The notes below the pieces were generated by a model. That model saw nothing but the letters and a program-made list of their open reading frames with translations, had not been told where the DNA came from and searched no databases. Source: Naegleria gruberi (taxonomy: Eukaryota). Taken from it: 64,000 nucleotides of DNA. Shown one piece after another: positions 14,885 to 63,572 of the stretch (within the stretch, counting starts at the first letter, position 1; each line of letters opens with the position of its first letter). The translations under genes and the position numbers were made by a program. Location of the stretch: NCBI GenBank assembly GCA_000004985.1, contig GG738853.1. One strand, 5' to 3'.

Positions 14885-15868
14885 ATGGTCCTTCTCAAAT
14901 CAGACAAAATCAAACTCACCATTCTCTCAGCCAATAACCTTCGTTCCATGGATCGAAATGGATTCTCAGATCCATACACAAAGATTTTCATCATTCCTGA
15001 ACAAAATGTTGAATTTAAAACAAGGAAAATTAAGAAAACTTTAAATCCAGTTTGGAATGAACAATTTACATTTTCACCAACTGCTCATTATTGTCAGGTT
15101 TCTTGTTATTTATACGATTGGGATATGATTGGAAAGGATGATGTGTTGGGGATGGTCAATTTTGAAATTTCAGAAGAAAGGTTTCGGATAAATCAAGAAC
15201 ATACAATTACAAAGAATGTGGATGATCAGGAGGATGGAAAATATGGAACTGTCACTTTTAAATTTACCATTGAAAGATCCCAACAAGAAATTGACAAGTG
15301 GCACGATTTGAAACTTCCAGCCAATTACAAATTTGTAATGGATTCAGATCCAACTTTTAAAGCAGCAATTCCATACTATTTCGAATACATTCCAGACCAG
15401 CTCACAAGTGAGAAACTCAAAAATCTAGTTGGCTGCACCAAAATGGAGTTTAAATACATGGAAAATGTCTTTACAATTATGAGATCGCAACACAACAAGT
15501 CAATTGAGGAAATTCTACTCATGCACACAAGACCTTTCGAAAATTCGACCAAGTCAGACGAAATTATTTGTAGAAAGTGTGATCACTTTACCAAAGGTGA
15601 TATTTTGATGGGAAAATTCAAACAAGTTGTCATTGCTGATTATTATGTTGGATATGGAAAGGACACGAATGGACACGACGTGTTTTCATTGAGTTTCTTT
15701 ATGGTTGGAATGTTGGAAGAGGGTCTCTATGAAATTTATCATTATTGCAGGGAGGAGGGAAGTCATGAGAGTGAGGAGTTGAATATTGAGGAAGATGTCC
15801 TGATTAATAATGTGATACAATATACACAGATGAGGAAATTCATTTCCAAAAAGTCGTGTTTGCCTTAA
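14885..15868 (+). CDS. C2 domain protein (N-terminal Ca2+/lipid-binding C2 domain)
   Basis: ATG at 14885. KLTILSANNLRSMDRNGFSDPYTKIFIIP...KTRKIKKTLNPVWNEQFTF...YLYDWDMIGKDDVLG carries the classic C2 motifs (SDPY, NP.WNE, D.D..GKDD). Single exon, 327 aa. Confidence 0.8.
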   Translation: MVLLKSDKIKLTILSANNLRSMDRNGFSDPYTKIFIIPEQNVEFKTRKIKKTLNPVWNEQFTFSPTAHYCQVSCYLYDWDMIGKDDVLGMVNFEISEERFRINQEHTITKNVDDQEDGKYGTVTFKFTIERSQQEIDKWHDLKLPANYKFVMDSDPTFKAAIPYYFEYIPDQLTSEKLKNLVGCTKMEFKYMENVFTIMRSQHNKSIEEILLMHTRPFENSTKSDEIICRKCDHFTKGDILMGKFKQVVIADYYVGYGKDTNGHDVFSLSFFMVGMLEEGLYEIYHYCREEGSHESEELNIEEDVLINNVIQYTQMRKFISKKSCLP

Positions 15869-18334: not shown

Positions 18335-20092
18335 TTAATAATGTAATTGTTCAATTGCCTCAACCCATGAATCTCTCTCCTCTGCACTGTCTACACAACA
18401 GTTCAAATTTCTCGCTCCCGATATTACCACAAATGTGAAACCCTTCTTTGATTCATCTTCCACATTTCTGGCTCTTGTCTTTGGATCAATTACTACAATG
18501 CCCTTTGGTTTTTCGTTTGGTGCATCCTTGGAGAAATAAAAGAGGAATTCCTTAAATAACAAACAGTACCTCTTCTTCCATGATTTAAAGTTTGAGCCTT
18601 GCTTCTCCATATAGCCTGCCTTGACAGGTCTCATGTGTTTCAGTGTTTGTACAGTTGGGTTAGAACCAAATCGCATCTCTGCTAATGCAGCTCCAGCATT
18701 TTCACCACTATTCTTGAGCAATGTTTGGACATCATTCTTTGATTTTTCATGTTGTTCTTTCAGTGTCAGTAAGGCAGAGGCAAGTTGAAGATTCTCCTTT
18801 CTAGATTCATCCAATTTTTCTTCCACTTCTTGTTTATCCTTTGTGTATTGCTCCGCCAAAGTTTGTCTTTCCTGTGCAAGTTTTTCTTCCATTTCTTGTC
18901 TTTCCTTTTCCAAAGTTTCAGCCATTTCTTGCTTTTCTTTTATCATGTTTTCTTCCATCTCTTTCTTTTCCTTCTCAAGCTTTTCTTTTTCCAAATTTAG
19001 AGATTTTCCCTCGGTAAATTGTTTCACCCTCTCAATTTCAATCGCCAATCGTTGTTTGAGGTCTTGAACCTGACTCTTGTAGGTATCCAACTCGGAGAGT
19101 GTACTATCGAGTTGAGATTTAGTTTCTTGTAATTGAGTTGTGGCTAAAATTTGAGATTGTTCCAAGTGGGAAACTCTTTCTTGAAGAGTGATGATCTTGG
19201 TTTGTTGATTTTCATTCTCTCGCTGCAACTTATCATTTGTAGTCAATAGTGAAGTGTTATCGCTTTCTAGTTTTTCAATTTGTTTCCTCATGTGAATTTC
19301 TAATTTTTTGTACATGTCAGTTGTTTCAAAGTTGGAAACATTCTTTATGAGCGCCAAGAATGCTTTCATTTCAGGTCTTGTATTTACATCAGGTATTTCC
19401 TTTCCTAGAATAGCAATAGAATTTTCAAATATTTCATTCTTGAGAGTGTCGAGTGTCTCTTCTGACTGTTCCAAAACCAAATCGGAATGGTCACAACTAT
19501 AAAAAATGGATGAAATCAGAGACATTATCAAGTGCTTCTCACCATAGAGAATATCTTCAGGCTCCAGCATGATACTCTTCTTGTTCAAATCCAATCTGTC
19601 TATTACTTCCAAAAGGGCTTGGATTTTATCACTATCTGTTGGAGCCTCAGAGATCATTGCCTCATCTTCATCTGTAAAACCCTTAGAGACTGTCTTTACA
19701 AGTTGGTGGAAGAGATAACCGTTTCTCCATTCCTCTCCAAGATTTGTTACCTTAATGTTTTTAGATTCCAACCTATTATTGACCCATCTGAGCAAGAGCG
19801 AGAGAGGTTGTTGATTCATAAATTCCACAACTGTTTCATCTGCCCTCTTCAATGCAATTGCATCAAAGAAGTGAACAATATTCAGTGATTTAGTCAAATC
19901 CTCTCTAATCAATTGCCACAAGATGGAATTTAATGCTGTTGGTCTCCCCTCGGCACAATCCTCTGGAGAAATGTTGACTACTACAATACCAAGACCCTTG
20001 GCATATCCTAGAACCATTGTATGATTCAAAACTCGTTTAATCTTGTTCAATTCTTGTTCCTTCTTTGGTTTACATATTTTACTCCATTCCAC
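18335..20092 (-). CDS. Calponin-homology-like N-terminal domain / central coiled-coil / C-terminal PH domain protein
   Basis: 585-codon minus-strand ORF. The N-terminal ~200 aa (GLGIVVVNISPEDCAEGRPTALNSILWQLIREDL) are CH-like. About 250 aa of heptad-rich E/K/Q sequence follow (LQERVSHLEQSQ...). C-terminal PH domain: KAGYMEKQGSNFKSWKKRYCLLFKEFLFYFSK...EERDSWVEAIEQL. The track start is a GTG, not an ATG. The real 5' end is unresolved. Confidence 0.6.
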   Translation of the reverse strand: MEWSKICKPKKEQELNKIKRVLNHTMVLGYAKGLGIVVVNISPEDCAEGRPTALNSILWQLIREDLTKSLNIVHFFDAIALKRADETVVEFMNQQPLSLLLRWVNNRLESKNIKVTNLGEEWRNGYLFHQLVKTVSKGFTDEDEAMISEAPTDSDKIQALLEVIDRLDLNKKSIMLEPEDILYGEKHLIMSLISSIFYSCDHSDLVLEQSEETLDTLKNEIFENSIAILGKEIPDVNTRPEMKAFLALIKNVSNFETTDMYKKLEIHMRKQIEKLESDNTSLLTTNDKLQRENENQQTKIITLQERVSHLEQSQILATTQLQETKSQLDSTLSELDTYKSQVQDLKQRLAIEIERVKQFTEGKSLNLEKEKLEKEKKEMEENMIKEKQEMAETLEKERQEMEEKLAQERQTLAEQYTKDKQEVEEKLDESRKENLQLASALLTLKEQHEKSKNDVQTLLKNSGENAGAALAEMRFGSNPTVQTLKHMRPVKAGYMEKQGSNFKSWKKRYCLLFKEFLFYFSKDAPNEKPKGIVVIDPKTRARNVEDESKKGFTFVVISGARNLNCCVDSAEERDSWVEAIEQLHY

Positions 20093-20841: not shown

Positions 20842-22071
20842 ATGCAAAGACAACAACAGAGAGCATCCTCATCACAAAATGTTTCTCAACATCAGCAATC
20901 TCTTGAACAACAACAAAATTCTCAAGAAGAGGATGATTTAGAATCGGTCAGATTATCACAAGCTGACGAATTATCGCCACCATCATCACCCGAACCTGAA
21001 ACTCCTTTTCAAAATCGAAGAAGGAGAGAACGAGAACGTTCTTTATCATCTAATGATGAAGAAGAACAATCAGTAGTAGATGAACAAGACAATACTTCAG
21101 TAACTCCCAACATAAATGCTCATCAAAGTCCCTATGTAACATCAAATGCTCGGAGGAGAGATTTAATGTACTCTAATCGATACTCTCCACAAACACCAGG
21201 ACAAAAGAAGAAGGCTTTGGAAAATAAATTGAAAAGGGATTTTCCAGAAGACTTTAGAGAAATGAATAGAAGAGAGGAGGAACGAAAAAAGAAACGAGAA
21301 TTTTGTCCAGATAGCTGTGGCTCGATTGCTGGATTTCAATTTACAAATCCTGGTTTACTCATGTTGGGACAGTCAGCACTACATAGATCGGGAGCAATCA
21401 GTTCATTGAGTACGATTGATCCTGCCTTCCTGGCACTGCATAGTCCCGAGAAGAGAATTGAAATTTTGAATAGTGTGGTTGCAAAACCTCCTCCACTTCC
21501 TCCAAAGGAACCAAAAACAGAGGCCGATATACTGAGGGAGTTTCTTAAAAAGAAGAGAACTGAATTGGCAAAACAGGACAAGGTTCAACCTAGATTGATC
21601 ATGGCAGATGATACTATCGATCTGATTGTCATGTGTAGAGAATCAATGTGTATGGGACATGAACTAGTTGAGAAAATTAAGGAAAAACATCAACAGACGA
21701 TTGTTAATTATGTACGAGCATTTGTGAAAAAGAAACATCAACAGCATGAAACTGCAGATGATAATGTAAATAGCAACCATTTAGATTTGAATGTCAATTC
21801 CTCTCACTTGAATGAAACGAGTCAATCAGCATGTTTGGAAAATAGTAACAACAATAACACATTGAATGAGATTTCCCAACTGAATCATTCTATTGCATCT
21901 TCAACATCTTCTCAAACTGTTGTTACAGAGCCAGTTACTCCTGCCAAACAAAGTGTTTCCTTAAAAACTCCAACAGCAAGTAATTCAAAGAAAACACCAG
22001 TTCAAAAAGAGGTTATCGAACTTGATTCTAGTGATTCTGATGATGATGATGGAATTATCCAAATTGATTAA
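20842..22071 (+). CDS. Hypothetical low-complexity (Ser/Gln/Glu-rich, acidic C-terminus) protein
   Basis: ATG at 20842, 409 codons, no intron detected. It has KR-rich patches, so it may be nuclear. No domain recognised. Confidence 0.45.
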   Translation: MQRQQQRASSSQNVSQHQQSLEQQQNSQEEDDLESVRLSQADELSPPSSPEPETPFQNRRRRERERSLSSNDEEEQSVVDEQDNTSVTPNINAHQSPYVTSNARRRDLMYSNRYSPQTPGQKKKALENKLKRDFPEDFREMNRREEERKKKREFCPDSCGSIAGFQFTNPGLLMLGQSALHRSGAISSLSTIDPAFLALHSPEKRIEILNSVVAKPPPLPPKEPKTEADILREFLKKKRTELAKQDKVQPRLIMADDTIDLIVMCRESMCMGHELVEKIKEKHQQTIVNYVRAFVKKKHQQHETADDNVNSNHLDLNVNSSHLNETSQSACLENSNNNNTLNEISQLNHSIASSTSSQTVVTEPVTPAKQSVSLKTPTASNSKKTPVQKEVIELDSSDSDDDDGIIQID

Positions 22072-22205: not shown

Positions 22206-25094
22206 ATGTTTAAAAAAGTCTTTGGAAATAATGGCAGTAAAAAACCAGAGCCAAACAACAATGTCATTGTTGAATCAGCCTCCTCCGACCAACCACCTCC
22301 ATCATCACCAACCACTCCCTCTGACGAACAACCAAGAAAACGAACACCCGTTGCGCCACAAATTCAAGAAGTGAGCGCCAAAGTAAATAATCAATATGTT
22401 CCCACCAAAAAAAACACCGAAGAACAGTACAGTGAGAGTGATAAGGGAGTCTCTGAGAGAAATAAACAAGCATCGGATGTGGTTCGTGTTGAGAGAAATC
22501 AGGGTGATGAAGCGTTGAAGGCTGTTAGAGGATTGTCTGATGGTTTGGAAGATCAACAGGATGATGATTTGGATGGAAAGAAGAAGAAGAAAAAGAAGAA
22601 GGATAAAGAAAGTATTGTTGTTAATACAACAGCTGGAAAGGGAAAGAAATCAACAATTTTGGGTGATTTGATGGGAATTGCTGCTAGAAAGGGATATCTG
22701 AGTAAGAGAGGTGGTTCTATCAAGACTTGGCACAAGAGATTTTTCATTGTTGTTGGTCATCGTCTCTATTATTACAAAGACGATAGTTCAAAGAATGAAC
22801 CATTGGGTTCTGTTAAATGTAAAGGACCAGAAAGTGTTCAACCTGTTGCAGACACATCTCGTCCTAACTGTTTTAGAATTATCTCTGAAGAGAGAACATT
22901 ATACTGTCAAGCTGAAAATGAAAATGACATGAATTCTTGGATGAATTTTTTGAAGGAACACACTTCAAAATTGAATTTACGTAAAGTGAAAGAACTTTCC
23001 AATCTTCAAGGATACATGACATTGTTGGATAATCAAACAAAGAAAAAGAAACGTGATGTTTATTGTTTGTGTATGGATGGTAAATTTTACATTTTGAATA
23101 ATTTTGAGGATGTATTACCGGATAGAATTGTAGAATTGGCTGGTGCCAGTGTAAGCAAAGTTAGTATTTCAGGTACATCAACAAATAATTTATTGGAAAC
23201 ACCTGCAACTCCTTCAAGTCCTAGAAAGATCAACAATACTGAAATTCAAGATTTTGCATTCCAAATCACAGAAAGTTTGCAAGCCGGATACATCCCAGAA
23301 GATGTTGCACCAGAAAAGGAAAAGTCTGGTAGATCTTCACGTTCCAGCTCTACTTTCCGTCAATCTAAAATGTTCAGTAGAAAATCAATGAAGGTCAATG
23401 ATAGCAGTCAATCAGGAAGTGGACAAGGCGATACTACAGCTCGTTTGAGAAAGGGAACTCAATTTTTCCAAAACTTGATCACTAGTGTTGAAGGACTCAA
23501 TCAAGTTACACTAACATCAATTGATCCATTTTTGGCTGATGCTGAAATTTGGTGTGAAATGGTTCGTCACGAATCTGAATTGGCCTCAACCAGTTGGTAT
23601 GTTCGTAACTCTCAAATGCGTGGTTGGATCAAGATTTTAATGAACAACGATGAAGTCAACAAGGCCATTCTTCAAGATAAGAAGAAACCAGAATCATTAT
23701 ATTGGATTGAAAGATATGCCTGTCTTGTTCGTGGTACCTTGTTCTACTTTTCCGAAGAGAATTCTCCAACTCCAGATGGTAGTATTGTCCTCACTACAGG
23801 TTCTCGTCTCGTAACCTCAGCTGTTCGTGAATTGAACTGTCCATATGCATTCAAGATTTCTTCACTTTCATCCAATTTTTATGTTTGCGTAAATTCGGAT
23901 GATGAAAAGGATTGTTGGGTTGAAGAATTAAAGGAAGCAACCTACTCTCAAGCCAATCTCGACTATAACAAGTATGGTTGGTTGACCAAGCAAGGTGGTT
24001 CCTACAAGTCTTGGAAGGAACGTTTCTGTATCTTGAAGGGTACCAATTTGTACTATTTCTCTGATCCAAATGACTCTGAACCTAAGGGTAAAGTCAATCT
24101 TAAGGGTCAAATGATTCGTCACCTTACTCCAGTCGAGGCCTACAATGAAGTTCAAAAGGATAACGTTATCAAGATTTACACTAGTCAACGTACTTGGTAT
24201 TTCTTTGCAGATACCATGCAAGAAGCTGTCGAATGGTCTATTGTATTGAGAAAGGCAGCCCTTCTCTATCGTGGTAGAACTTGGATTGTTGATGACAAGT
24301 TGGATGGCATGGATGCAAAGAATTCCTTGAGATGTAAGAGTATTTCCCAAGCTGTTGCCAAAGCAGCAGAATTGGATCGTATCATTGTCTATTCTGGTGT
24401 ATATTCTGAAACTGTAGTTGTAAACAAATCTGTAATTATAGAATGTGTAGGTGATGTGGTATTAAAGAAGGATTCTGGAGCTCCACTCATTGTGGATTGT
24501 ATTGGTGCCGTAAAGGTCACTGGTATGGAATTAAGACAAGAAGGAGCTCCTAAAGAGCTCAGAGGTGACAAACATGCAGCTGAAGTTAAACGTGGTAACA
24601 TTATGTTTGAACATTGTCAAATTACCAGCAGAGATGGTAATGGTGTTGTCATTACCGAAGAAGGTGGTGTCACTATGAGCAAGTGTCGTGTATTCGACTG
24701 CAACCACTATGGCGTTTGGTTGAACGGAAGAGCTAGTGCCATTTTGGAAAATGTGGAAATTTGTGGATGTCAATGGGATGGTGTCATGCTCATGGCTAAT
24801 ACTGACTGTATCATTCGTCAATCTGATATTTTCAACAATTCTTACAATGGTATTGCCGTCTCTTCAAAGGGTCGTCTCAATGTAGAAAATTGTAGAATAA
24901 GTGGAAACTTGTGGGATGGTATCTCTATCAATACTGACAAGGGTGCTGCCAGATTATTCGATAACTTTATTTTTGACAACCAAGGATTTGGTATTTATTA
25001 TGCTAAAGATAATGTCAGTGGTATCAACGTTGACAATGAAGTGTATTCCAATAAGAAGGGTCAAATCTACACTCTCAGTGGTAGACTTGAATAA
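22206..25094 (+). CDS. Multi-PH-domain protein with a C-terminal right-handed parallel beta-helix (PbH1-repeat) region
   Basis: ATG at 22206; the track ORF opens earlier at a TTG. Four PH-like modules: KGYLSKRGGSIKTWHKRFFIV...NSWMNFLK; LQGYMTLLDNQTKKKKRDVYCL...; LYWIERYACLVRGTLFYFSEE...CWVEELK; and KYGWLTKQGGSYKSWKERFCILKGTNLYYF...AVEWSIVLRKA. The C-terminal ~250 aa have periodic N..GI/W.DG beta-helix repeats (CQITSRDGNGVVI..., NHYGVWLNG..., QWDGVMLMAN..., SYNGIAVSS..., LWDGISINTD..., QGFGIYYA). Confidence 0.65.
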   Translation: MFKKVFGNNGSKKPEPNNNVIVESASSDQPPPSSPTTPSDEQPRKRTPVAPQIQEVSAKVNNQYVPTKKNTEEQYSESDKGVSERNKQASDVVRVERNQGDEALKAVRGLSDGLEDQQDDDLDGKKKKKKKKDKESIVVNTTAGKGKKSTILGDLMGIAARKGYLSKRGGSIKTWHKRFFIVVGHRLYYYKDDSSKNEPLGSVKCKGPESVQPVADTSRPNCFRIISEERTLYCQAENENDMNSWMNFLKEHTSKLNLRKVKELSNLQGYMTLLDNQTKKKKRDVYCLCMDGKFYILNNFEDVLPDRIVELAGASVSKVSISGTSTNNLLETPATPSSPRKINNTEIQDFAFQITESLQAGYIPEDVAPEKEKSGRSSRSSSTFRQSKMFSRKSMKVNDSSQSGSGQGDTTARLRKGTQFFQNLITSVEGLNQVTLTSIDPFLADAEIWCEMVRHESELASTSWYVRNSQMRGWIKILMNNDEVNKAILQDKKKPESLYWIERYACLVRGTLFYFSEENSPTPDGSIVLTTGSRLVTSAVRELNCPYAFKISSLSSNFYVCVNSDDEKDCWVEELKEATYSQANLDYNKYGWLTKQGGSYKSWKERFCILKGTNLYYFSDPNDSEPKGKVNLKGQMIRHLTPVEAYNEVQKDNVIKIYTSQRTWYFFADTMQEAVEWSIVLRKAALLYRGRTWIVDDKLDGMDAKNSLRCKSISQAVAKAAELDRIIVYSGVYSETVVVNKSVIIECVGDVVLKKDSGAPLIVDCIGAVKVTGMELRQEGAPKELRGDKHAAEVKRGNIMFEHCQITSRDGNGVVITEEGGVTMSKCRVFDCNHYGVWLNGRASAILENVEICGCQWDGVMLMANTDCIIRQSDIFNNSYNGIAVSSKGRLNVENCRISGNLWDGISINTDKGAARLFDNFIFDNQGFGIYYAKDNVSGINVDNEVYSNKKGQIYTLSGRLE

Positions 25095-25220: not shown

Positions 25221-26953
25221 TTACAAATAAAGGAAGGACAAGATGATCAAAACTAAAACAATTAAAACGTTTGGAAGACGAACCAATTGAGCATCATTGA
25301 CATTTCTTGAAATATTAGCATCAGGAGTAGCAGTGGAATTTGTGTTGGAGTTTGAATTAGAATTGGAAGAAACTGCTGGTTTTGGTGAAGAAGTAACTGC
25401 GCTAGGTACTTCAACCTTTAACATTTGAACTGAAACAGTTGATTCCTGATTGACTCCACTAATTGCTGAAATACTTCCCCAACATGAAGAAGATGGCCAA
25501 GTAAATACGAAACTTTGTCCATTATTCAAATTTCCACTATCAATATTTGAAAGATTCCTACAAGCCAAATTCAAAAACAATCTAAACTGTCCTCCTCCAG
25601 TAGTAAGAGCTGTAACATTATACAATTGACCAGCAACTGTTTTAGCCCATGAAACTGGTGAATATCCATTTCCATTTGCATTATTCTGAACTGTTTTCAC
25701 AGTTCTACTGGAAAAGATTACTGCTTGTCTCCATGTATCGAAATATCCAGCAGGTCCTCCAGAACTTACAGTCCAAAGACCTCTCATGGAAAGTAAATTT
25801 TGATTTCTATTAAAATCAATCACCTTATCCTCACCATTCAAATATCCTGAACAAGATTTGAGAGGTCTGAGAGCAGCTCTAATGAGTTGCAATTCATATG
25901 CTGCTTGATTACTCCAACCACCTGGATGCAATGTGTAATTACTGCCAATTTCAACGAAAATGCCATAAGGTGTACCAGTATTACGATCAGTGACATAACC
26001 TCCATAAGTTTTCAAAGTTTCTGCAACTTTTCTCAATTTTGGAATGGTAAGTTGAGCAGTGACATTGAAAGTGGAAGGAAGCATCAATAAACTACCTTCA
26101 GGAATAGTTCCATAATTGCTCTGATAATCAGTATCAGATGCAGTGGCTGGCCAAACATATGGTGGATTATTAGACAAACCATTGTGAGTCATGGATACAG
26201 TCAATGCATGTCTATATTGAGTATCGCCATCATCTACTTCATGTTTTCTAATCAATCCTGCAGAACTCACAACTCCTGTGGCTCTGGCTCCTTGATAGAA
26301 TTGAGCTGGATTTCCCCATCCAGAACCATCGAGAGCTGTCCATGAATAGAGAGTAGTACACCAGGTGCCATTAATTTTGACCATTTGCCAGAATGAGTGA
26401 ATAACATTTGAGATTGGATCATAAATTTCACAGTGACCTATTTTCCAAAAATATCAAATTTTGACACACATGTCATTTTAAAAAACTAATTACATTGACA
26501 AGTATGCAAACAAACTTACCATCACTTCCACTAGCTGGTAAAGTATTAGCTGGCCATCTTGGAATTGTAATATTTGGAGCAAATCCACCAATATCTGGCA
26601 CGCCAATTCCCTTACTAGATGAACCATAAACTGTGAGTGGAGAATCAGTTTTTGAGGCAACGAAAACTCCAGTAGAATAAATTCCTTCACCAACTGTTGG
26701 ATAAAAGTTCATTGTTGATAGTGGAATAGTTTTGGTATCGTCTAAAACTGGGTTGACTGGACGACAATTCCAAGGAGAGCTTGCAGAGAATGGTCTGTAA
26801 ATGCTTCCAAAGGGATAATCAGATTGGAGGCATGTTACATGTTGAGAAAACATGTCTGTTAAAAACAATGTCAATTGTCAAAGTGCATGAAAACTTACAA
26901 ATTACTGACAGCAAAAGCATGACAGATAATTTAACTGTGAATAGGTTATTCAT
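25221..26953 (-). CDS. Secreted Ser/Thr-rich cell-surface protein, probably GPI-anchored
   Basis: Three exons on the minus strand: 26953..26899, 26855..26520 and 26437..25221. The introns are GTAAGT...AG, 43 nt and 82 nt long, with consistent phase (1 then 1). Signal peptide MNNLFTVKLSVMLLLSVI. The C-terminus is an S/N/T-rich linker followed by a hydrophobic tail, VRLPNVLIVLVLIILSFLYL, typical of a GPI-attachment signal. The central domain is unassigned. Confidence 0.55.
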
Positions 26954-29465: not shown

Positions 29466-30794
29466 ATGCATCCCTTTGAAGGTTACGCAAAATTATGTGG
29501 GCAAGATGTTGAATATTACTTACAAAAGCTAAATGTCTCTCTCGGAAGAACACGGGTGCCTGATCCACAAGTTATAGATCCTAAATCTTTGGCAGAAGAA
29601 CAGACAGTTGATGCTAATCAAAGTTTAAATTCCACATTATCTACTACAGGTCATTTACAACCTTCTATTGAAACACTTCAAAGAGTGCTCTGGGAACAAG
29701 ATGTAGATATTCCTCTAGGTACCAACAAGAATATTTCACGTCTCCATGCCAAAATAATTTATAATGCTATAACAAAATTCTTTGAATTACACGTGATATC
29801 AAAGAATGGTGTAAAAGTTAATGGAATTTACTATCCTCCACAACCACACTCTCAACCAATCCCACTTCATAACGGTTATGAATTACAATTAGGTGATTGT
29901 TTCTTGACCTTTATGCTTCCAATTAAAAAGATAACCCAAAGCGAAATGTATCAAATGGTAAACCTGAAAAAGAGAGATATGCAAAATGCAGATAGAGCTG
30001 ACAGAGACAATTCTTCAACAAATGATCAAGATAGACAAGGAAATGATATGATGATGACTGACGAGAGTCACACAAGTACTATGAATGATGAAGTTTCTGA
30101 TGCTCTTTCAAAAAACTTTCTTAGAGAAATTGAACCAATGGACGACCCCAATGGAGAGTATGGTTCTTTTTTTCTAAATGAAGGAAAGAAGAATATTTTT
30201 TTTAGGAACCTCGGAAATGGTCTAGCTGGGGGAACACCAATTAGTAGTGAACAAGCAAATGTACTTGCAAGATCATTGACAACAAGTATTGGCCCTTCTC
30301 TCACTGCAGCAGTAACACAAACTTTATCTGGAATTTATTTAGAAAATCACTCTGATTTTATCAAATCATTTCTTTCTAAATCAAATGCACCAAGTCCTCA
30401 TACGGAAATGGTTCTGGAGTATCTTTACAACTCTCCTGATATTGAAAATGCAGAATCACCTGAGGCAGTTAGTATGTTAGCGCGATTAATGACAGATATG
30501 GATAATAATATCGGATCAAACTTTTCCAACATGTCCAAGAATACTAAAAAGCTGTTGCATATAGTACTGAATGCTGCTTTGGCAACAGAACAACAAGAGT
30601 TAGCCTCTCTACTTTTCAAGACAAAGCAAGAAAACGAAATTACTGTAAGAAATGGTATTGCTACTTTTGTGCTTGATTGGAACGAAAAGAAGCAGAAACA
30701 ACAAGATATGGAAGCTGCTGTAAATACAAGTGCTACAACACCTCTTGTAGATCCACAAGCCTCCTCTCTTTCATCTCATCCAACAGTGAGATAG
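29466..30794 (+). CDS. FHA-domain protein. This is the likely 5' portion of a FoxK/Fkh1-type FHA-forkhead transcription factor gene.
   Basis: ATG at 29466. AKLCGQDVEYYLQKLNVSLGRT...ISRLHAKIIYNAITKFFELHVISKNGVKVNGIYY...LQLGDCFLTFMLP matches the FoxK/Fkh FHA pattern (AKLEG.EFEY...GR......SR.H....f.l...GKNGV.V.G). The stop is a TAG at 30792. The forkhead ORF starts 98 nt downstream on the same strand. Confidence 0.6.
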   Translation: MHPFEGYAKLCGQDVEYYLQKLNVSLGRTRVPDPQVIDPKSLAEEQTVDANQSLNSTLSTTGHLQPSIETLQRVLWEQDVDIPLGTNKNISRLHAKIIYNAITKFFELHVISKNGVKVNGIYYPPQPHSQPIPLHNGYELQLGDCFLTFMLPIKKITQSEMYQMVNLKKRDMQNADRADRDNSSTNDQDRQGNDMMMTDESHTSTMNDEVSDALSKNFLREIEPMDDPNGEYGSFFLNEGKKNIFFRNLGNGLAGGTPISSEQANVLARSLTTSIGPSLTAAVTQTLSGIYLENHSDFIKSFLSKSNAPSPHTEMVLEYLYNSPDIENAESPEAVSMLARLMTDMDNNIGSNFSNMSKNTKKLLHIVLNAALATEQQELASLLFKTKQENEITVRNGIATFVLDWNEKKQKQQDMEAAVNTSATTPLVDPQASSLSSHPTVR

Positions 30795-30891: not shown

Positions 30892-33087
30892 ATGGCCACC
30901 ACAACATCATCATTAACTTCTCTAATTCCTCCTCCAATATTATCATCCTCTCAACAACAACAAACACAATTGACGGATGTACCTCCATCATCGCAGAGTA
31001 CAACACAATTACCACCCGATGATGATTTGGATGCTTTGGACGAATTTGATGAATTGATGGCTTTCGTCAATGCTCCTATGGATACAAATTCTGAACAATG
31101 GCGTTTATTGAATCAAAATTCAAATGTTCCACCAGTGACAACAACAACTTCCTCTATTCCTCCTAATGATACAACAGTAAACAGTAGTGCTACTACATCA
31201 AATGTAACTGCACCAACTACTGAAAAGAAGAAAAAGACTACAAAAAAGAAGAAGGATGAAAAGGAAACCACCACTAAAAAGAAGGAAACAAAGAAGAAGA
31301 AGGATGATAAAAAAGAGGACAAGAAGGAAGATAAAAAGGAAGAAAAGAAAGAAGAAAAGGAAAAGAAGAAGAAAAAGAAGAAGGAGGAGCCATCTACTCC
31401 AAAGGATACTGTCAAACAAGAAGAGCCTGCTGTTTCCACACCAAAAGATCCCAATCTTAAGAAACCTGATATTTCATATTCTACAATGATTGCTCATGCA
31501 CTCATGTCAGCAGCTAATAACATGATGCCTCTCAAATCAATTTATTCTTGGATTTCCACAACTTATCCATTCTACGATCTTGCAGAGACTGGTTGGAAGA
31601 GTAGTGTGAGACATAATTTGAGCACAAATTCTAAATATTTCCGAAGAGTATCACCTGAAGAATGGAGACAATTAACTGGAGAAGAGAAAAAGTCAAAATC
31701 TAAAAAACAAGGCTCCTCAGATAAGAAGATGGCATTCTCTGTCTATGCACTTGTGACTGAGCATTGTGATGAAGTTTTGGGAACAAAGAAAGCCAAATCA
31801 GACAAGAAGGCATCCTCTTCTACTTCTTCTTTAACAACGCTTAGTAATGCTACTACAGCACCAGTTAGTTCATCATCTACATTACCTGCCAATAGTACTC
31901 TTTCTTCTTCTACTAATGCAACCACTGACCAAACAGCAATAACCTCAGAAGTGAAAGAAGTTAAGGAAAAAGAAACCAAGAAGAAGAAATCATCCACCAG
32001 TAGTGCAACAAAGAAGAGAAGTAGAAAAAAGTCCGAATCTACAGACTTGGATTTAAATGATGGCTTGTTGAACTTTGATGAAATTGCACCATCAATGAGT
32101 TTGGATAAACCAGAAAAGAAAAAGAAGAAGAAGACTTCTAAAAAATCAGAAACTCCTACAGCTAGTACAACTCCAGCTGCTGAATCTTCAACACCTGTGA
32201 CTCAAACCAATAACAACAATAATACCAATGTAACTACTCCCCAATTGTCACATTCCAGTTCCAATCAAAACTTCCAACACAGTACTCCAACTAATCAAAT
32301 TTCTATCACCCAAAATATTATGCCAAATACATCTCAACCATTGGCTCCAAAACAACCATTCCCTTTGTCAAATCAAATTCCTAATCAAATTCCACCAAAC
32401 CAAATGCCAAATCAAATGCCAAACCAAATGCCAAATCAGATGCCAAATCAAATACCTAATCAAATCCCTCGTCAAAGTACTAATAACTTGTTGGAAATGT
32501 TTGTTCAGAATGGAATGCTAAATGCCCAAGAACCTTCTTTTCTTAAAATTTTATTGGATGGAAATGGAGATTCATCAGCCAACAATCCATTATCAGCGCT
32601 CATGGGTCAAGGAGGTCAGAATATGAATCCAAACCAAGGACTCAATACAGCACCACTTGGTAATATGGTTGATTCACAGGGAAAGCAAATTGACCTTATT
32701 AATTTACTTTCAATGGTAACTGGAATGCCTCAACAACAAAACATGTCTCAATCTGGTATGTCTCAACCACCAATGCACCAAAACTTTTTAGATCCAAATA
32801 ACAGACTTGTTACACAAGGAAGACCTCCTAATTGGCCACCTGGTGCAGGCTTACCAAATCAACTTCAAGGAGGAAGGCCTTCTATGGGATCAGTTGTTGG
32901 TATGCAAAATCCTGGTCAATTCCCTGTACAAAATCCAAATATGAATCCATTAGGTCATCCAGGATTTAATCAATTCCCATTTCCCATGATGAACTACTCT
33001 CAAACACTTCTCAACTTTGATCCATCATCAATACTGCAGCAACAAGGTAATGGTGGTATTCCTCCCAATAATAACAATAATAAATAG
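30892..33087 (+). CDS. Forkhead (winged-helix) DNA-binding domain protein. This is the likely 3' portion of the same FHA-forkhead gene.
   Basis: Forkhead box at about nt 31462-31640: KPDISYSTMIAHALMSAANNMMPLKSIYSWISTTYPFYDLAETGWKSSVRHNLSTNSKYFRRV. It carries the invariant features KP..SY..LI..AI, F.YY, GW.NS[IV]RHNLS. The flanks are a K/E-rich block and Q/N/P-rich tandem repeats (NQMP)n. The reading frame is open upstream to nt 30790, overlapping the end of the FHA ORF. Confidence 0.7.
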   Translation: MATTTSSLTSLIPPPILSSSQQQQTQLTDVPPSSQSTTQLPPDDDLDALDEFDELMAFVNAPMDTNSEQWRLLNQNSNVPPVTTTTSSIPPNDTTVNSSATTSNVTAPTTEKKKKTTKKKKDEKETTTKKKETKKKKDDKKEDKKEDKKEEKKEEKEKKKKKKKEEPSTPKDTVKQEEPAVSTPKDPNLKKPDISYSTMIAHALMSAANNMMPLKSIYSWISTTYPFYDLAETGWKSSVRHNLSTNSKYFRRVSPEEWRQLTGEEKKSKSKKQGSSDKKMAFSVYALVTEHCDEVLGTKKAKSDKKASSSTSSLTTLSNATTAPVSSSSTLPANSTLSSSTNATTDQTAITSEVKEVKEKETKKKKSSTSSATKKRSRKKSESTDLDLNDGLLNFDEIAPSMSLDKPEKKKKKKTSKKSETPTASTTPAAESSTPVTQTNNNNNTNVTTPQLSHSSSNQNFQHSTPTNQISITQNIMPNTSQPLAPKQPFPLSNQIPNQIPPNQMPNQMPNQMPNQMPNQIPNQIPRQSTNNLLEMFVQNGMLNAQEPSFLKILLDGNGDSSANNPLSALMGQGGQNMNPNQGLNTAPLGNMVDSQGKQIDLINLLSMVTGMPQQQNMSQSGMSQPPMHQNFLDPNNRLVTQGRPPNWPPGAGLPNQLQGGRPSMGSVVGMQNPGQFPVQNPNMNPLGHPGFNQFPFPMMNYSQTLLNFDPSSILQQQGNGGIPPNNNNNK

Positions 33088-59697: not shown

Positions 59698-59747
59698 NNN
59701 NNNNNNNNNNNNNNNNNNNNNNNNNNNNNNNNNNNNNNNNNNNNNNN
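59698..59747. other. Assembly gap (50 N)
   Basis: Run of N characters. Confidence 1.
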
Positions 59748-60391
59748 AGTCAACATTTACATTCCCATGGTACCATTTCTGATTACTAGGACATGAAATT
59801 AAATTCTATATCATTATAGATCATCTACATTATGATGGTAAAGTTTCAATAGGTGGTCCTTTTTCCAGATTTCCACATATTCATACAAGTTCATACAAGT
59901 TGACCCTATGATGGTTGAGGGAAGAAATCTTTAAATATGAAAGTTAAAATAAATTTGATATTCGATGTTTACTCATCAAATGGAACATTTTCATGTCAGG
60001 ATTCAATATGTTTTCATGAGAAACTCAAAAGTTATTGTTGACCTATTGTACCTCACAACTTCCCTTTTCACTTGATACTTTTATACCTACAGACATGAAC
60101 TTTTGAAATTTTATATGAAAGTGATTATGAATGTTGTTAATGATGATATAGACTATATAATCTCATTAAAGGATTTTGAAACTATCATCCTTCCTATGGT
60201 TTCATTTTACAATTTTTAATCTGACATTATTTACAAGGTTGATATTTTATAAATTGAAAAACTAAATATACCACATTGTTCTACTCATCATTTACAATCG
60301 AATGATATAAAATTTAATGATATTTGAATAAGTTTATATATTTGGGCTAGGGTTTGAACGTTGGGTTTAGAAGAATTCTATTTTTAGAATT

Positions 60392-60808
60392 GGGTTTGGG
60401 TTTGGGTTTGGGTTTGGGTTTGGGTTTGGGTTTGGGTTTGGGTTTGGGTTTGGGTTTGGGTTTGGGTTTGGGTTTGGGTTTGGGTTTGGGTTTGGGTTTG
60501 GGTTTGGGTTTGGGTTTGGGTTTGGGTTTGGGTTTGGGTTTGGGTTTGGGTTTGGGTTTGGGTTTGGGTTTGGGTTTGGGTTTGGGTTTGGGTTTGGGTT
60601 TGGGTTTGGGTTTGGGTTTGGGTTTGGGTTTGGGTTTGGGTTTGGGTTTGGGTTTGGGTTTGGGTTTGGGTTTGGGTTTGGGTTTGGGTTTGGGTTTGGG
60701 TTTGGGTTTGGGTTTGGGTTTGGGTTTGGGTTTGGGTTTGGGTTTGGGTTTGGGTTTGGGTTTGGGTTTGGGTTTGGGTTTGGGTTTGGGTTTGGGTTTG
60801 GGTTTGGG
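60392..60808 (+). repeat. (GGGTTT)n telomere-like hexamer array, about 70 units. It is preceded by degenerate variants and truncated by a 50-N gap at 60809-60858.
   Basis: Perfect 6-nt periodicity can be read directly. The lead-in at 60340-60391 carries degenerate copies (GGGCTAGGGTTTGAACGTTGGGTTTAG...). Confidence 0.95.
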
Positions 60809-60984
60809 NNNNNNNNNNNNNNNNNNNNNNNNNNNNNNNNNNNNNNNNNNNNNNNNNNTCTCATTGATACATGTCTAATTATCATGTTTTATGATATATA
60901 ATTGAAATAATTGAAATTTATCATATATATAGGGAGATAACCAATTAGGATGAGAGAAGGGGAAGTTACGCTCACAATTTACCA

Positions 60985-62986
60985 NNNNNNNNNNNNNNNN
61001 NNNNNNNNNNNNNNNNNNNNNNNNNNNNNNNNNNNNNNNNNNNNNNNNNNNNNNNNNNNNNNNNNNNNNNNNNNNNNNNNNNNNNNNNNNNNNNNNNNNN
61101 NNNNNNNNNNNNNNNNNNNNNNNNNNNNNNNNNNNNNNNNNNNNNNNNNNNNNNNNNNNNNNNNNNNNNNNNNNNNNNNNNNNNNNNNNNNNNNNNNNNN
61201 NNNNNNNNNNNNNNNNNNNNNNNNNNNNNNNNNNNNNNNNNNNNNNNNNNNNNNNNNNNNNNNNNNNNNNNNNNNNNNNNNNNNNNNNNNNNNNNNNNNN
61301 NNNNNNNNNNNNNNNNNNNNNNNNNNNNNNNNNNNNNNNNNNNNNNNNNNNNNNNNNNNNNNNNNNNNNNNNNNNNNNNNNNNNNNNNNNNNNNNNNNNN
61401 NNNNNNNNNNNNNNNNNNNNNNNNNNNNNNNNNNNNNNNNNNNNNNNNNNNNNNNNNNNNNNNNNNNNNNNNNNNNNNNNNNNNNNNNNNNNNNNNNNNN
61501 NNNNNNNNNNNNNNNNNNNNNNNNNNNNNNNNNNNNNNNNNNNNNNNNNNNNNNNNNNNNNNNNNNNNNNNNNNNNNNNNNNNNNNNNNNNNNNNNNNNN
61601 NNNNNNNNNNNNNNNNNNNNNNNNNNNNNNNNNNNNNNNNNNNNNNNNNNNNNNNNNNNNNNNNNNNNNNNNNNNNNNNNNNNNNNNNNNNNNNNNNNNN
61701 NNNNNNNNNNNNNNNNNNNNNNNNNNNNNNNNNNNNNNNNNNNNNNNNNNNNNNNNNNNNNNNNNNNNNNNNNNNNNNNNNNNNNNNNNNNNNNNNNNNN
61801 NNNNNNNNNNNNNNNNNNNNNNNNNNNNNNNNNNNNNNNNNNNNNNNNNNNNNNNNNNNNNNNNNNNNNNNNNNNNNNNNNNNNNNNNNNNNNNNNNNNN
61901 NNNNNNNNNNNNNNNNNNNNNNNNNNNNNNNNNNNNNNNNNNNNNNNNNNNNNNNNNNNNNNNNNNNNNNNNNNNNNNNNNNNNNNNNNNNNNNNNNNNN
62001 NNNNNNNNNNNNNNNNNNNNNNNNNNNNNNNNNNNNNNNNNNNNNNNNNNNNNNNNNNNNNNNNNNNNNNNNNNNNNNNNNNNNNNNNNNNNNNNNNNNN
62101 NNNNNNNNNNNNNNNNNNNNNNNNNNNNNNNNNNNNNNNNNNNNNNNNNNNNNNNNNNNNNNNNNNNNNNNNNNNNNNNNNNNNNNNNNNNNNNNNNNNN
62201 NNNNNNNNNNNNNNNNNNNNNNNNNNNNNNNNNNNNNNNNNNNNNNNNNNNNNNNNNNNNNNNNNNNNNNNNNNNNNNNNNNNNNNNNNNNNNNNNNNNN
62301 NNNNNNNNNNNNNNNNNNNNNNNNNNNNNNNNNNNNNNNNNNNNNNNNNNNNNNNNNNNNNNNNNNNNNNNNNNNNNNNNNNNNNNNNNNNNNNNNNNNN
62401 NNNNNNNNNNNNNNNNNNNNNNNNNNNNNNNNNNNNNNNNNNNNNNNNNNNNNNNNNNNNNNNNNNNNNNNNNNNNNNNNNNNNNNNNNNNNNNNNNNNN
62501 NNNNNNNNNNNNNNNNNNNNNNNNNNNNNNNNNNNNNNNNNNNNNNNNNNNNNNNNNNNNNNNNNNNNNNNNNNNNNNNNNNNNNNNNNNNNNNNNNNNN
62601 NNNNNNNNNNNNNNNNNNNNNNNNNNNNNNNNNNNNNNNNNNNNNNNNNNNNNNNNNNNNNNNNNNNNNNNNNNNNNNNNNNNNNNNNNNNNNNNNNNNN
62701 NNNNNNNNNNNNNNNNNNNNNNNNNNNNNNNNNNNNNNNNNNNNNNNNNNNNNNNNNNNNNNNNNNNNNNNNNNNNNNNNNNNNNNNNNNNNNNNNNNNN
62801 NNNNNNNNNNNNNNNNNNNNNNNNNNNNNNNNNNNNNNNNNNNNNNNNNNNNNNNNNNNNNNNNNNNNNNNNNNNNNNNNNNNNNNNNNNNNNNNNNNNN
62901 NNNNNNNNNNNNNNNNNNNNNNNNNNNNNNNNNNNNNNNNNNNNNNNNNNNNNNNNNNNNNNNNNNNNNNNNNNNNNNNNNNNNNN
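60985..62986. other. Assembly gap (2002 N)
   Basis: Run of N characters. The six-frame ORFs crossing it are artefacts. Confidence 1.
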
Positions 62987-63572
62987 CTGACATGTTGAAT
63001 GATTTCAAATTGTCATGAAACTGATACAGTGGTGTTTATTCACCATTAGTAAGGTACTGTATCAATTTCATAATGATCTGTATAGTAGATGTCATTGTCA
63101 CATCCCTGTAGGTATCAAGTGCATCAGCCATGTACCATGTATGATATGGATGAATGTCAAAGTGATATTAATGTATTTAATTATCATGTACAGATGTATT
63201 GGAAGTGCATTGAAGTGGAACAGAATTCTCTCTTCAATGTTAGAATAGGTCAGTTGACAAGTTGAATAGTTAATTTCCTGAAATGATACCAAAGTATTTG
63301 AAATTGATATATATTGTTATTAACATGATATATAAGGTGATATATTGATTTGAATTGAATTTGAAATGTTTTCATTGATATTCTAATTGTCTAATCTATT
63401 ATATGAAATTAACTTATATAAATCATTATAATGATGTAATATTATGTTATATTGTGATTATATATTCAATTTGGAGTATATTGATATATAATATATTGAT
63501 TTATAATGAGTATTTATTGAGATAATCAATTAAGATGAATAAAAGTCAAAATATTGGGTCTGGCTTTGGCGT

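What the first reader, a model, noticed from the sequence alone, without database searches (positions are those of the whole stretch)
22206..25094. Cytosolic protein combining four PH domains with a C-terminal parallel beta-helix
Four separate PH-like modules, each with the GWL.K..G..K.W..R+F.L motif and a C-terminal W, are followed by ~250 aa of PbH1-type repeats (N..GI, W.DG). PH domains target membranes and phosphoinositides. Beta-helix repeats are usually carbohydrate-binding or lyase folds. The combination is not a textbook architecture and may mark a novel membrane-associated scaffold or enzyme.
Basis: partly seen in the sequence, partly recalled or inferred. Interest (0 to 1): 0.5.

Follow-up and report, generated by a model that had tools for sequence, protein, structure and literature searches.

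The report
Naegleria AM14: PH-domain array plus beta-helix
This is a real, intron-free Naegleria gruberi gene, already in databases as the uncharacterised protein AM14, that joins four membrane-lipid-binding-type PH domains (one degenerate) to a beta-helix binding module; the design is shared by related amoebae, but its function has never been studied.

Summary
Window 22206-25094 (+) is one 962-codon ORF. It is 100% identical to Naegleria gruberi NAEGRDRAFT_57266 (XP_002680537.1, UniProt D2V687, "Uncharacterized protein AM14").

- **PH domains:** Pfam finds three significant PH domains (E 5e-21, 3e-11, 4e-19). The claimed second PH domain is a degenerate, split PH with a disordered insert of about 115 aa. 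It fails Pfam on its own, but it is collinear with canonical PH domains in homologues.
- **Location:** there is no signal peptide and no TM segment.
- **Conservation:** the fusion is conserved in N. lovaniensis, Willaertia magna, Heterolobosea sp. BB2 and several environmental protists. PH4 and the helix are the best-conserved parts.
- **Lipid motif:** only the PH next to the helix keeps the 3-phosphoinositide-binding motif in every member.
- **Catalysis:** the AlgG DPHD catalytic motif is absent.
- **Nearest helix relatives:** these are fused to kinase, caspase, CHAT, TIR, AAA, Hsp70 or F-box (FBXO11-like) domains, so this helix type is an intracellular recognition module.

Most likely this is a phosphoinositide-recruited adaptor. 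That mechanism is inferred, not shown. Interest is modest.

The parts
22206..25094 (+). Complete single-exon CDS (962 aa plus stop) of N. gruberi AM14 / NAEGRDRAFT_57266
   Evidence: ORF list. It is 962/962 identical to XP_002680537.1.
22206..22670 (+). N-terminal region of about 155 aa, predicted disordered, with a conserved acidic 'DEALKAV.GLSDGLE' patch
   Evidence: pLDDT is about 25 over aa 1-160. There is no Pfam hit. Identity is 54-63% to the Willaertia and N. lovaniensis orthologues, and the patch is visible in A1.
22578..22607 (+). Polybasic run KKKKKKKKDK (aa 125-134), just upstream of PH1
   Evidence: Read from the sequence. A lysine run is also present in N. lovaniensis and Willaertia. 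Its role, as an electrostatic membrane contact or an NLS, is only inferred.
22686..22970 (+). PH1 (aa 161-255)
   Evidence: PF00169 E 4.7e-21. The best PDB sequence matches are myosin X PH, DAPP1, TAPP1 and GRP1/cytohesin PH domains. In the basic motif the first K/R is replaced by His (WHKRFF).
22989..23603 (+). PH2 (aa 262-466): degenerate split PH domain. The strands lie at aa 267-355, a low-complexity disordered insert at aa 323-437 (nt 23172-23516), and the C-terminal helix with W449 at aa 441-460
   Evidence: There is no Pfam hit; the spliced version gives E 0.15. It is collinear with Pfam-significant PH domains of P0017, P0161 and P0158. hhalign gives P 0.014. Secondary structure comes from the AF2 model. 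The insert is only 24% identical to Willaertia.
23613..23945 (+). PH3 (aa 470-580), with an extended beta1-beta2 loop
   Evidence: PF00169 E 2.7e-11. AF2 secondary structure. 65% identical to Willaertia.
23967..24269 (+). PH4 (aa 588-688), the best-conserved PH. It is joined directly to the helix through the conserved linker 'VLRKAALLYRGRTWIVD'
   Evidence: PF00169 E 3.6e-19. 80% identical to Willaertia and 93-95% to other Naegleria. The linker is conserved in A1, A2 and P0096.
23988..24029 (+). KQGGSYKSWKERFC (aa 595-608): a K-x-small-x6-K-x-R-hyd-hyd motif of the type found in 3-phosphoinositide-binding PH domains
   Evidence: This is the only regex hit in the protein. The same motif is present in the helix-adjacent PH of all 9 family members tested. 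The meaning of the motif comes from established PH-domain literature (own knowledge).
24270..25070 (+). Right-handed parallel beta-helix (aa 689-955): an N-terminal cap plus about 10 rungs, the last five with an exact 23-24 aa PbH1 period

Best explanation
Shown:
- The feature is the N. gruberi gene AM14.
- It encodes a soluble cytosolic protein with a disordered N-terminus carrying a polylysine run, four tandem PH domains (PH2 degenerate and interrupted by a disordered loop), and a compact right-handed beta-helix of the PF13229/CASH sequence class.
- PH4 and the helix are joined by a short invariant linker and are the most conserved parts.
- This PH-plus-helix unit is the constant core of a small protist family. 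All named members are Heterolobosea.

Inferred:
- The protein works as a membrane-recruited adaptor.
- PH4 (full K...K-x-R motif), possibly helped by PH1 and the polybasic run, docks the protein on membrane patches rich in PI(3,4,5)P3 or PI(3,4)P2, such as pseudopods or phagocytic and macropinocytic cups.
- The rigidly attached beta-helix then presents a flat recognition surface that binds a partner. The partner is most likely a protein, as in the CASH domains of the F-box protein FBXO11.
- The helix is not expected to catalyse a carbohydrate reaction.
- PH2 and PH3, which lack the lipid motif, more probably add avidity, bind proteins or regulate the molecule.
For: - Identity and gene model.
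- Domains.
- No TM segment or signal peptide.
- The fusion is conserved in N. lovaniensis, Willaertia magna, Heterolobosea sp. BB2 and environmental eukaryotic contigs.
- Domain-wise conservation to Willaertia is PH4 80% and helix 74%, against PH2 core 56% and insert 24%.
- The lipid motif is kept in the helix-adjacent PH of all 9 members, while other PH positions lose it.
- The best PDB sequence matches of PH1 and PH4 are 3-phosphoinositide-binding PH domains (myosin X, DAPP1, TAPP1, GRP1, pleckstrin C-PH).
- The closest helix relatives outside the family are intracellular fusions with Pkinase, Peptidase_C14, CHAT, TIR, AAA, HSP70 and F-box.
- The AlgG catalytic YGIDPHD aligns to HYGVWLN, so the DPHD motif is absent.
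- FBXO11 CASH domains are right-handed beta-helices in a nucleo-cytoplasmic protein and were modelled on the same AlgG template: PMC8825234. Their substrate-recognition role is taken from abstracts listed and from my own knowledge.
- The 'AM' label marks genes that Fritz-Laylin et al. 2010 associated with amoeboid motility by phylogenetic profiling (own knowledge; the paper is not held).
Against: - No lipid binding, localisation, partner or phenotype is known. Everything about mechanism is inferred from sequence.
- Sequence motifs predict PH lipid specificity imperfectly, and many PH domains bind proteins.
- PH1 has His in place of the first basic residue, and PH2 and PH3 lack the motif.
- Structural neighbours of the helix are overwhelmingly carbohydrate-active enzymes and phage tailspikes. 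Only one catalytic motif was checked.
- The presence of class I PI3K in Naegleria was not tested here.
- The polylysine run could be a nuclear localisation signal.
- The full-length model is poor (pLDDT 54), so the rigid PH4-helix coupling is deduced from linker conservation only.
Confidence: 0.45

Rival explanations
1. Membrane-targeted enzyme. The beta-helix is catalytic (a lyase, hydrolase, epimerase or esterase acting on a cytosolic or membrane-face glycoconjugate or other polymer), and the PH array only delivers it to the membrane.
For: - All top structural neighbours are carbohydrate-active enzymes or depolymerases: Pel9A, AlgE4, PL31 alginate lyase and pectin methylesterases.
- Weak sequence similarity to AlgG (E 5e-4).
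- Acidic and amide residues (D858, N881, D904) are invariant in the family.
Against: - The invariant residues are the generic PbH1 repeat positions, recurring every 23 aa, not a single active-site cluster.
- The AlgG DPHD motif is replaced by VWLN.
- The nearest sequence relatives are recognition modules fused to signalling or effector domains.
- The protein is cytosolic.
Confidence: 0.15
2. Lipid-independent scaffold. The PH domains act mainly as protein-binding or autoregulatory modules (for example for small GTPases, actin regulators or phosphoproteins), and the helix is a second protein-docking or oligomerisation platform. Membrane phosphoinositides play no essential role.
For: - Three of the four PH domains in N. 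gruberi lack the complete basic motif.
- PH2 is degenerate, with a long Ser/Thr-rich insert that could be a phosphorylation target.
- Most PH domains in any proteome do not bind lipids specifically (own knowledge).
Against: - The helix-adjacent PH keeps the full K-x-G-x6-K-x-R motif in every family member over deep divergence (about 35% identity in the helix).
- PH1 and PH4 are net basic (+6 and +4) and are preceded by a polylysine run.
Confidence: 0.25
3. Nuclear or other non-membrane role, driven by the polylysine stretch acting as a nuclear localisation signal.
For: The KKKKKKKKDK run at aa 125-134 is conserved as a K-run in three genera. FBXO11, the closest named eukaryotic helix relative, has an annotated putative NLS whose variants exclude the protein from the nucleus (PMC8825234).
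Against: The more distant family members P0017, P0161 and P0012 start directly with PH domains and show no long K-run in the sequences printed. The conserved core is PH plus helix, not the N-terminus.
Confidence: 0.05
4. Artefact: two adjacent genes (a multi-PH gene and a beta-helix gene) merged by an assembly or annotation error.
For: In one environmental contig the gene caller split the helix into two calls (L001 4181-6358 and 6392-6697).
Against: - The window has an uninterrupted 971-codon reading frame.
- The same continuous architecture appears in independent assemblies of at least four named species and several metagenomes.
- The PH4-helix linker is invariant.
Confidence: 0.01

Closest known systems
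FBXO11 / FBXO10 (DRE-1), F-box proteins with CASH beta-helix domains
   Same: - Both are intracellular eukaryotic proteins with a PF13229-type right-handed beta-helix.
- In both, the helix is coupled to a separate targeting or effector module.
- An F-box plus Beta_helix protein (P0086) is among the sequence relatives of the AM14 helix (E 7.9e-23, about 25% identity).
- The FBXO11 CASH domains were modelled on AlgG, the same best enzyme template found here.
   Different: - AM14 has no F-box and no zf-UBR domain.
- It has one helix unit instead of three CASH units.
- The partner module is a PH array, pointing to membrane recruitment rather than SCF ubiquitin ligase assembly.
3-phosphoinositide-binding PH adaptors (DAPP1, TAPP1, GRP1/cytohesins, myosin X PH, pleckstrin C-PH)
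   Same: These are the best PDB sequence matches of PH1 and PH4 (E 7e-13 to 1e-8). PH4 carries the same K-x-G-x6-K-x-R-hyd-hyd motif.
   Different: None of these carries a beta-helix. AM14 has four tandem PH domains, of which only one has the complete motif. Lipid binding is untested.
Intracellular proteins, probably prokaryotic, that fuse a signalling or effector domain to PF13229 beta-helices (Ser/Thr kinase, caspase/CHAT, TIR, AAA, Hsp70 plus Beta_helix)
   Same: They are the closest sequence relatives of the helix outside the PH-helix family (E 1e-43 to 1e-20, 25-32% identity). They follow the same logic of an N-terminal signalling module plus C-terminal helix, and share the N-terminal cap motif (DRI..G.Y.E...K).
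   Different: Most have several tandem helix units and no PH domains. Their organisms were not determined here.
Secreted or periplasmic beta-helix enzymes (AlgG/AlgE4 mannuronan epimerases, PL9/PL31/PL6 lyases, pectin methylesterases) and phage tailspikes
   Different: - Identity is only 8-18%.
- AM14 has no signal peptide.
- The AlgG DPHD catalytic motif is not conserved.
- The domain context is different.

Membership tests
PH domain (Pfam PF00169) | Significant match to the family profile above the gathering score (25.1 bits) | tested here: met
   PH1 scores 75.7 bits, PH3 44.3 bits and PH4 69.7 bits. PH2 does not reach the threshold (13.1 bits, E 0.15) and counts only as a degenerate member, through collinearity with canonical PH2 domains of homologues.
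PH domain (Pfam PF00169) | Seven-stranded beta-sandwich capped by a C-terminal helix carrying a conserved Trp | tested here: met
   AF2 secondary structure shows strand sets followed by a helix for all four modules. Confidence for PH1-PH3 is only pLDDT about 50-75. W245, W449, W571 and W677 are invariant in the orthologues.
3-phosphoinositide-binding PH subclass (DAPP1/TAPP1/GRP1/PKB type) | Basic motif K-x-small-x(6-11)-R/K-x-R-hyd-hyd across strands beta1-beta2 | tested here: met
   The motif is met for PH4 only (KQGGSYKSWKERFC, aa 595-608). PH1 has H-K-R, and PH2 and PH3 lack the motif.
3-phosphoinositide-binding PH subclass (DAPP1/TAPP1/GRP1/PKB type) | Specific, measurable binding to PI(3,4,5)P3 or PI(3,4)P2 | not testable with these tools
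   This needs lipid-binding assays.
Right-handed parallel beta-helix, PF13229 (Beta_helix) / CASH-PbH1 class | Significant profile match and 22-24-residue PbH1 periodicity | tested here: met
   PF13229 scores 110.4 bits, E 8.6e-32. The HYG/WDG/YNG/WDG motifs are spaced exactly 23 aa apart.
Right-handed parallel beta-helix, PF13229 (Beta_helix) / CASH-PbH1 class | Three-stranded right-handed beta-helix fold | tested here: met
Mannuronan C5-epimerase / alginate-lyase-type beta-helix enzymes (AlgG, AlgE4) | Catalytic DPHD (AlgG) / YG(F/I)DPH(D/E) motif on the PB1 face | tested here: not met
   In the profile alignment, AlgG 'YGIDPHDRS' aligns with the family consensus 'QYGIYLSEKS', which is 'HYGVWLNGR' in AM14. 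No D-P-H-D is present.
Mannuronan C5-epimerase / alginate-lyase-type beta-helix enzymes (AlgG, AlgE4) | Export signal (periplasmic or secreted location) | tested here: not met
   The N-terminus is hydrophilic (mean KD -0.77 over the first 25 residues) and there is no TM-grade segment.
FBXO11/FBXO10 family | N-terminal F-box that binds SKP1 | tested here: not met
   There is no F-box or F-box-like hit in the Pfam scan at E up to 1.
FBXO11/FBXO10 family | Three tandem CASH units followed by a zf-UBR domain | tested here: not met
   AM14 has a single helix unit of about 270 aa at the C-terminus and no zf-UBR hit.
SHCBP1 / Nessun Dorma family (cytosolic PbH1 proteins) | Sequence relationship of the helix, and the family-specific N-terminal region | not tested
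It was considered only from memory and from PMC12469403.
N. gruberi 'AM' (amoeboid-motility-associated) gene set of Fritz-Laylin et al. 2010 | Being the gene that carries the AM label | tested here: met
   The cluster member P0288 is EFC47793.1 / XP_002680537.1 / D2V687, 'Uncharacterized protein AM14', and is 962/962 identical.
N. gruberi 'AM' (amoeboid-motility-associated) gene set of Fritz-Laylin et al. 2010 | Orthologues present in other amoeboid lineages and absent from non-amoeboid ones | tested here: inconclusive
   All named members of the full architecture are Heterolobosea. The environmental members could not be placed: PEPCK on contig L002 gave only 63-67% matches. The source paper is not held.

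The most novel reading that the evidence does not exclude
The PH4-helix unit may be a previously unrecognised type of phosphoinositide effector specific to heterolobosean amoebae (and perhaps a few other protists). In this reading, a PIP3-recruited beta-helix acts at the inner face of the plasma membrane. It would either be a receptor for a non-protein ligand (a cytosolic glycoconjugate or a polyanionic polymer) or an enzyme with a new active site, and it would be required for pseudopod or feeding-cup dynamics, as the 2010 'amoeboid motility' label hinted.
Probability: 0.1. Interest if true: 0.6.

Novelty: new variant of a known kind. Interest (0 to 1): 0.3.

Why it matters
- If the inferred mechanism is right, AM14 would be a lineage-specific read-out of phosphoinositide signalling in Naegleria. 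That genus includes the lethal pathogen N. fowleri, and its crawling and feeding machinery is poorly characterised at the molecular level.
- It would also extend the idea, known from FBXO11/FBXO10, that CASH-type beta-helices serve as intracellular recognition modules. Here the helix would be coupled to membranes rather than to a ubiquitin ligase.
- The gene was flagged as amoeboid-motility-associated in 2010, and no paper on it was found in the searchable library. A clear, testable domain-level hypothesis is therefore useful.
- The combination uses common domains, and protist genomes are full of unusual domain shuffles, so a specialist would not be greatly surprised.

Tried and rejected
1. 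**AlphaFold-database fold search.** Foldseek against afdb50 would have shown annotated eukaryotic relatives, but the library was not available.
2. **Taxonomic placement of environmental family members.** I searched with the PEPCK gene next to P0016 on contig L002. The best named matches were only 63-67% identical (an unlabelled EukProt entry, Acanthamoeba, chlamydiae), so this was not informative.
3. **Word-index homologue search with the helix family profile (A2).** It returned only five further proteins. The exhaustive representative search was far more useful.
4. **Retrieving the N. gruberi genome paper to read how AM14 was defined.** The paper is not held. Searches for the locus tag or 'AM14' found nothing. 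Two later papers citing it gave no detail on the AM set.
5. **Direct profile evidence for PH2.** Using only Naegleria and Willaertia sequences, the evidence is weak (hhalign P 0.014, probability 3%). PH2 is accepted only on collinearity and predicted secondary structure.
6. **Enzyme reading via the AlgG motif.** Rejected for that motif. Other possible active sites could not be assessed without coordinates.
7. **Gene-fusion artefact.** Rejected.
8. **Genomic context.** The neighbours are a C2 protein, a CH+PH protein, an FHA protein, a Forkhead protein and several ORFs with no Pfam match. This is an ordinary eukaryotic gene neighbourhood, and I did not treat it as functionally informative.
Full report
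**What is at the coordinates**

Window 22206-25094 (+) is one uninterrupted reading frame. It runs from ATG 22206 to the stop at 25092-25094 and encodes 962 aa.

The window is AT-rich (about 31-37% G+C outside the gap-containing last 4 kb) and its genes look eukaryotic. The protein is 962/962 identical to Naegleria gruberi NAEGRDRAFT_57266 (EFC47793.1, XP_002680537.1, UniProt D2V687, "Uncharacterized protein AM14"). The window is therefore N. gruberi nuclear DNA, and the gene is a known but uncharacterised annotation.

"AM" is, to my knowledge, the label that Fritz-Laylin et al. (Cell 2010) gave to gene families associated with amoeboid motility by phylogenetic profiling. That paper is not in the held library. 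No held paper mentions the locus tag or AM14.

**Check of the observation**

Pfam finds three PH domains well above the gathering score:

| Domain | Residues | E-value vs PF00169 |
|---|---|---|
| PH1 | 161-252 | 4.7e-21 |
| PH3 | about 491-579 | 2.7e-11 |
| PH4 | 589-685 | 3.6e-19 |

Pfam also finds a C-terminal Beta_helix domain (PF13229, E 8.6e-32) and a NosD match (4.5e-13).

- Even with its inserts spliced out it reaches only E 0.15.
- A profile built from the Naegleria and Willaertia sequences alone aligns to the DAPP1 PH in the correct register, but weakly (P 0.014).
- However, homologues have a canonical PH at exactly this position: P0017 E 3.4e-17, P0158 2.4e-10, P0096 7e-5. The N. 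gruberi segment aligns collinearly with them, strand by strand.
- The full-length AF2 model shows six strands (aa 267-355), a disordered stretch (aa 356-440) and a helix (aa 441-460) carrying W449.

So there are three robust PH domains and one degenerate, split PH domain.

The beta-helix repeats are real. HYG/WDG/YNG/WDG recur at exactly 23-residue spacing. The N-terminal 160 residues are predicted disordered and contain a KKKKKKKKDK run.

No segment approaches transmembrane hydrophobicity (maximum 19-residue Kyte-Doolittle mean 1.31), and the N-terminus is hydrophilic. This fits a cytosolic protein.

**Structure of the C-terminal domain**

I modelled aa 680-962 using a nine-sequence family alignment (A2). 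The model has pLDDT 90.8 and pTM 0.89 and consists of regular three-strand rungs.
- Foldseek against the PDB gives Pel9A (E 3.9e-6, TM 0.65), AlgE4 and pectin methylesterases.

The fold is therefore unambiguous, but no particular enzyme family is singled out.

By sequence profile, the best solved relatives are a phage receptor-binding protein (E 9.7e-9) and AlgG (E 5e-4). In that alignment the AlgG catalytic stretch YGIDPHD lies opposite HYGVWLN in AM14, so the DPHD motif is absent. The residues invariant across the family are the generic repeat positions (aromatic-D/N-G, Asn ladder) plus an N-terminal cap motif (DRI..G.Y.E...K). They do not form one cluster that looks like an active site.

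**Is the fusion conserved?**

Yes. Full-length orthologues with the same order of domains exist in N. lovaniensis (79-80% identity), in an unnamed Naegleria-like environmental sequence, and in Willaertia magna (59-62%).

An exhaustive HMMER search of 1.84 billion representatives with the helix alone found 2946 hits. Most of the best single-stretch hits (34-39% identity) are again multi-PH plus C-terminal helix proteins:

| Protein | PH domains found by Pfam | Source |
|---|---|---|
| P0012 | 2 | Logan assembly of a public sequencing run |
| P0014 / P0158 | 4 | JGI metagenome |
| P0016 | 2 | Logan assembly of a public sequencing run |
| P0017 | 4 | Logan assembly of a public sequencing run |
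| P0051 / P0161 | 4 | Heterolobosea sp. BB2 |
| P0096 | 3 | JGI metagenome |
| P0286 | 3 | Logan assembly of a public sequencing run |

The contigs carrying P0096 and P0016 are eukaryotic (BTB, PTPLA, PEPCK and Rad52 neighbours). All named members are Heterolobosea. I could not place the environmental ones.

Within the Naegleria/Willaertia group the conservation is uneven. Identity to Willaertia is 80% for PH4, 74% for the helix, 70% for PH1, 65% for PH3, 56% for the PH2 core and 24% for the PH2 insert. The linker between PH4 and the helix (AALL.RG.T..VD) is short and conserved. The minimal family members are simply two PH domains plus the helix. PH4 plus helix is therefore the functional core.

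**Clues to mechanism**

The motif K-x-small-x6-11-K/R-x-R-hyd-hyd is characteristic of 3-phosphoinositide-binding PH domains (established literature, own knowledge).
- It occurs once in AM14, in PH4 (KQGGSYKSWKERFC).
- It is retained in the helix-adjacent PH of all nine family members examined.
- At other PH positions it is variably lost: PH1 has H-K-R, and PH2 and PH3 have none.

The best PDB sequence matches of PH1 and PH4 are myosin X, DAPP1, TAPP1, GRP1/cytohesin and the pleckstrin C-PH. PH1 and PH4 are net basic and are preceded by the polylysine run.

Outside the family, the closest helix relatives (25-32% identity, E 1e-43 to 1e-20) carry Pkinase, Peptidase_C14, CHAT, TIR, AAA, Hsp70 or F-box domains in front of one or several helix units. 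This sequence class of beta-helix is thus typically an intracellular module attached to a signalling or effector domain.

The named eukaryotic example is FBXO11. Its CASH domains are right-handed beta-helices and were modelled on AlgG (PMC8825234). [quoted passage not shown]

**Best explanation and rivals**

- **Adaptor (confidence 0.45).** I consider it most likely that AM14 is a phosphoinositide-recruited adaptor. PH4, perhaps with PH1 and the polybasic stretch, docks on PI(3,4,5)P3- or PI(3,4)P2-rich membrane. The rigidly linked helix then binds a partner, probably a protein. The architecture, fold, conservation and motif are shown. Lipid binding, localisation and the ligand are inferred.
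- **Membrane-targeted enzyme (0.15).** This is favoured by the structural neighbours. Against it stand the missing motif, the generic nature of the conserved residues and the relatives' domain contexts.
- **Lipid-independent protein scaffold (0.25).**
- **Nuclear role via the K-run (0.05).**
- **Fusion artefact (0.01).** This is effectively excluded.

**Comparison with what is known, and novelty**

The protein passes membership tests for the PH family (three domains) and for the PF13229 beta-helix class. It fails the defining features of the FBXO11 family (no F-box, no zf-UBR) and of the AlgG-type epimerases (no DPHD, no export signal). It works most like a CASH-domain recognition protein whose targeting module has been exchanged for a PH array.

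The sequence itself is already public and labelled AM14. The PH-plus-helix architecture is not described in any paper I could search. I rate it a new variant of a known kind, with modest interest (0.3). It is a real, conserved and testable lineage-specific architecture, but it is built from common domains and has no experimental data.

**Limits**
- The full-length model is poor (pLDDT 54, four-sequence alignment).
- The AFDB fold library was unavailable.
- The taxonomy of the environmental members is unresolved.
- The presence of class I PI3K in Naegleria was not verified here.
- The meaning of the AM label rests on my memory of a paper I could not read.

Noticed in passing
window 60390-60808 and 63554-63999 (gaps at 59698-59747, 60809-60858 and 60985-62986): There are two perfect or near-perfect (TTTGGG)n arrays, about 70 and 75 copies, in the same orientation. 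They are separated by assembly gaps and about 570 bp of AT-rich sequence at the end of the window. They look like telomere-type repeats at a scaffold end. The apparent 17-18% G+C and the extreme GC skew of the last 4 kb are largely an effect of the N runs and these repeats.
   Followed up: partly
window 18335-20092 (-): Two genes upstream lies a 585-aa ORF with a calponin-homology (CH) domain (E 1.2e-15) and a C-terminal PH domain (E 3.8e-16). It is a candidate actin- and membrane-linked protein near AM14. Proximity in a eukaryotic genome is probably coincidental.
   Followed up: no
window 25221-26384 (-) and 26473-26874 (-): Immediately downstream on the opposite strand is a 387-aa ORF with no Pfam match. 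It has a Ser/Asn-rich stretch and a strongly hydrophobic C-terminal tail (…NVLIVLVLIILSFLYL), which suggests a surface or GPI-anchored protein. The adjacent 133-aa ORF may be an upstream exon of the same gene.
   Followed up: no
window 20842-22071 (+): The gene directly upstream of AM14 encodes a 409-aa Gln/Ser/Asn/Glu-rich low-complexity protein with no Pfam match.
   Followed up: no
window 14885-15868 (+), 29466-30794 (+), 30892-33087 (+): Other neighbours are a C2-domain protein, an FHA-domain protein and a Forkhead-domain protein of 731 aa (E 1.1e-21). The Forkhead hit may deserve a closer look in this non-animal, non-fungal organism.
   Followed up: no
related proteins P0139, P0146, P0056, P0075, P0019, P0010/P0011 (representative search): The same sequence class of beta-helix is fused to Hsp70, TIR, caspase (Peptidase_C14), CHAT, AAA-ATPase and Ser/Thr-kinase domains in other, probably prokaryotic, proteins. 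This recurring 'effector plus beta-helix' design is reminiscent of defence or signalling systems. JGI labels one kinase fusion 'F-box protein 11', which is a mis-annotation by helix similarity.
   Followed up: partly
L001 4181-6358 and 6392-6697: In the environmental homologue P0096 the gene caller split the beta-helix into two adjacent calls. The first ends in a poly-Ser read-through (…SSSSSSSSNSSILTQR). This is probably a short intron or a frameshift rather than two genes.
   Followed up: no
P0008 (Willaertia magna ABK040_015956, 366 aa): A second Willaertia protein matches only the last 100 or so residues of the AM14 helix at 61% identity. Its N-terminal part has weak DMAP1-like and alpha-amylase-C hits below the Pfam cut-offs. 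It may be a partial duplicate, a pseudogene or a chimeric gene model.
   Followed up: no
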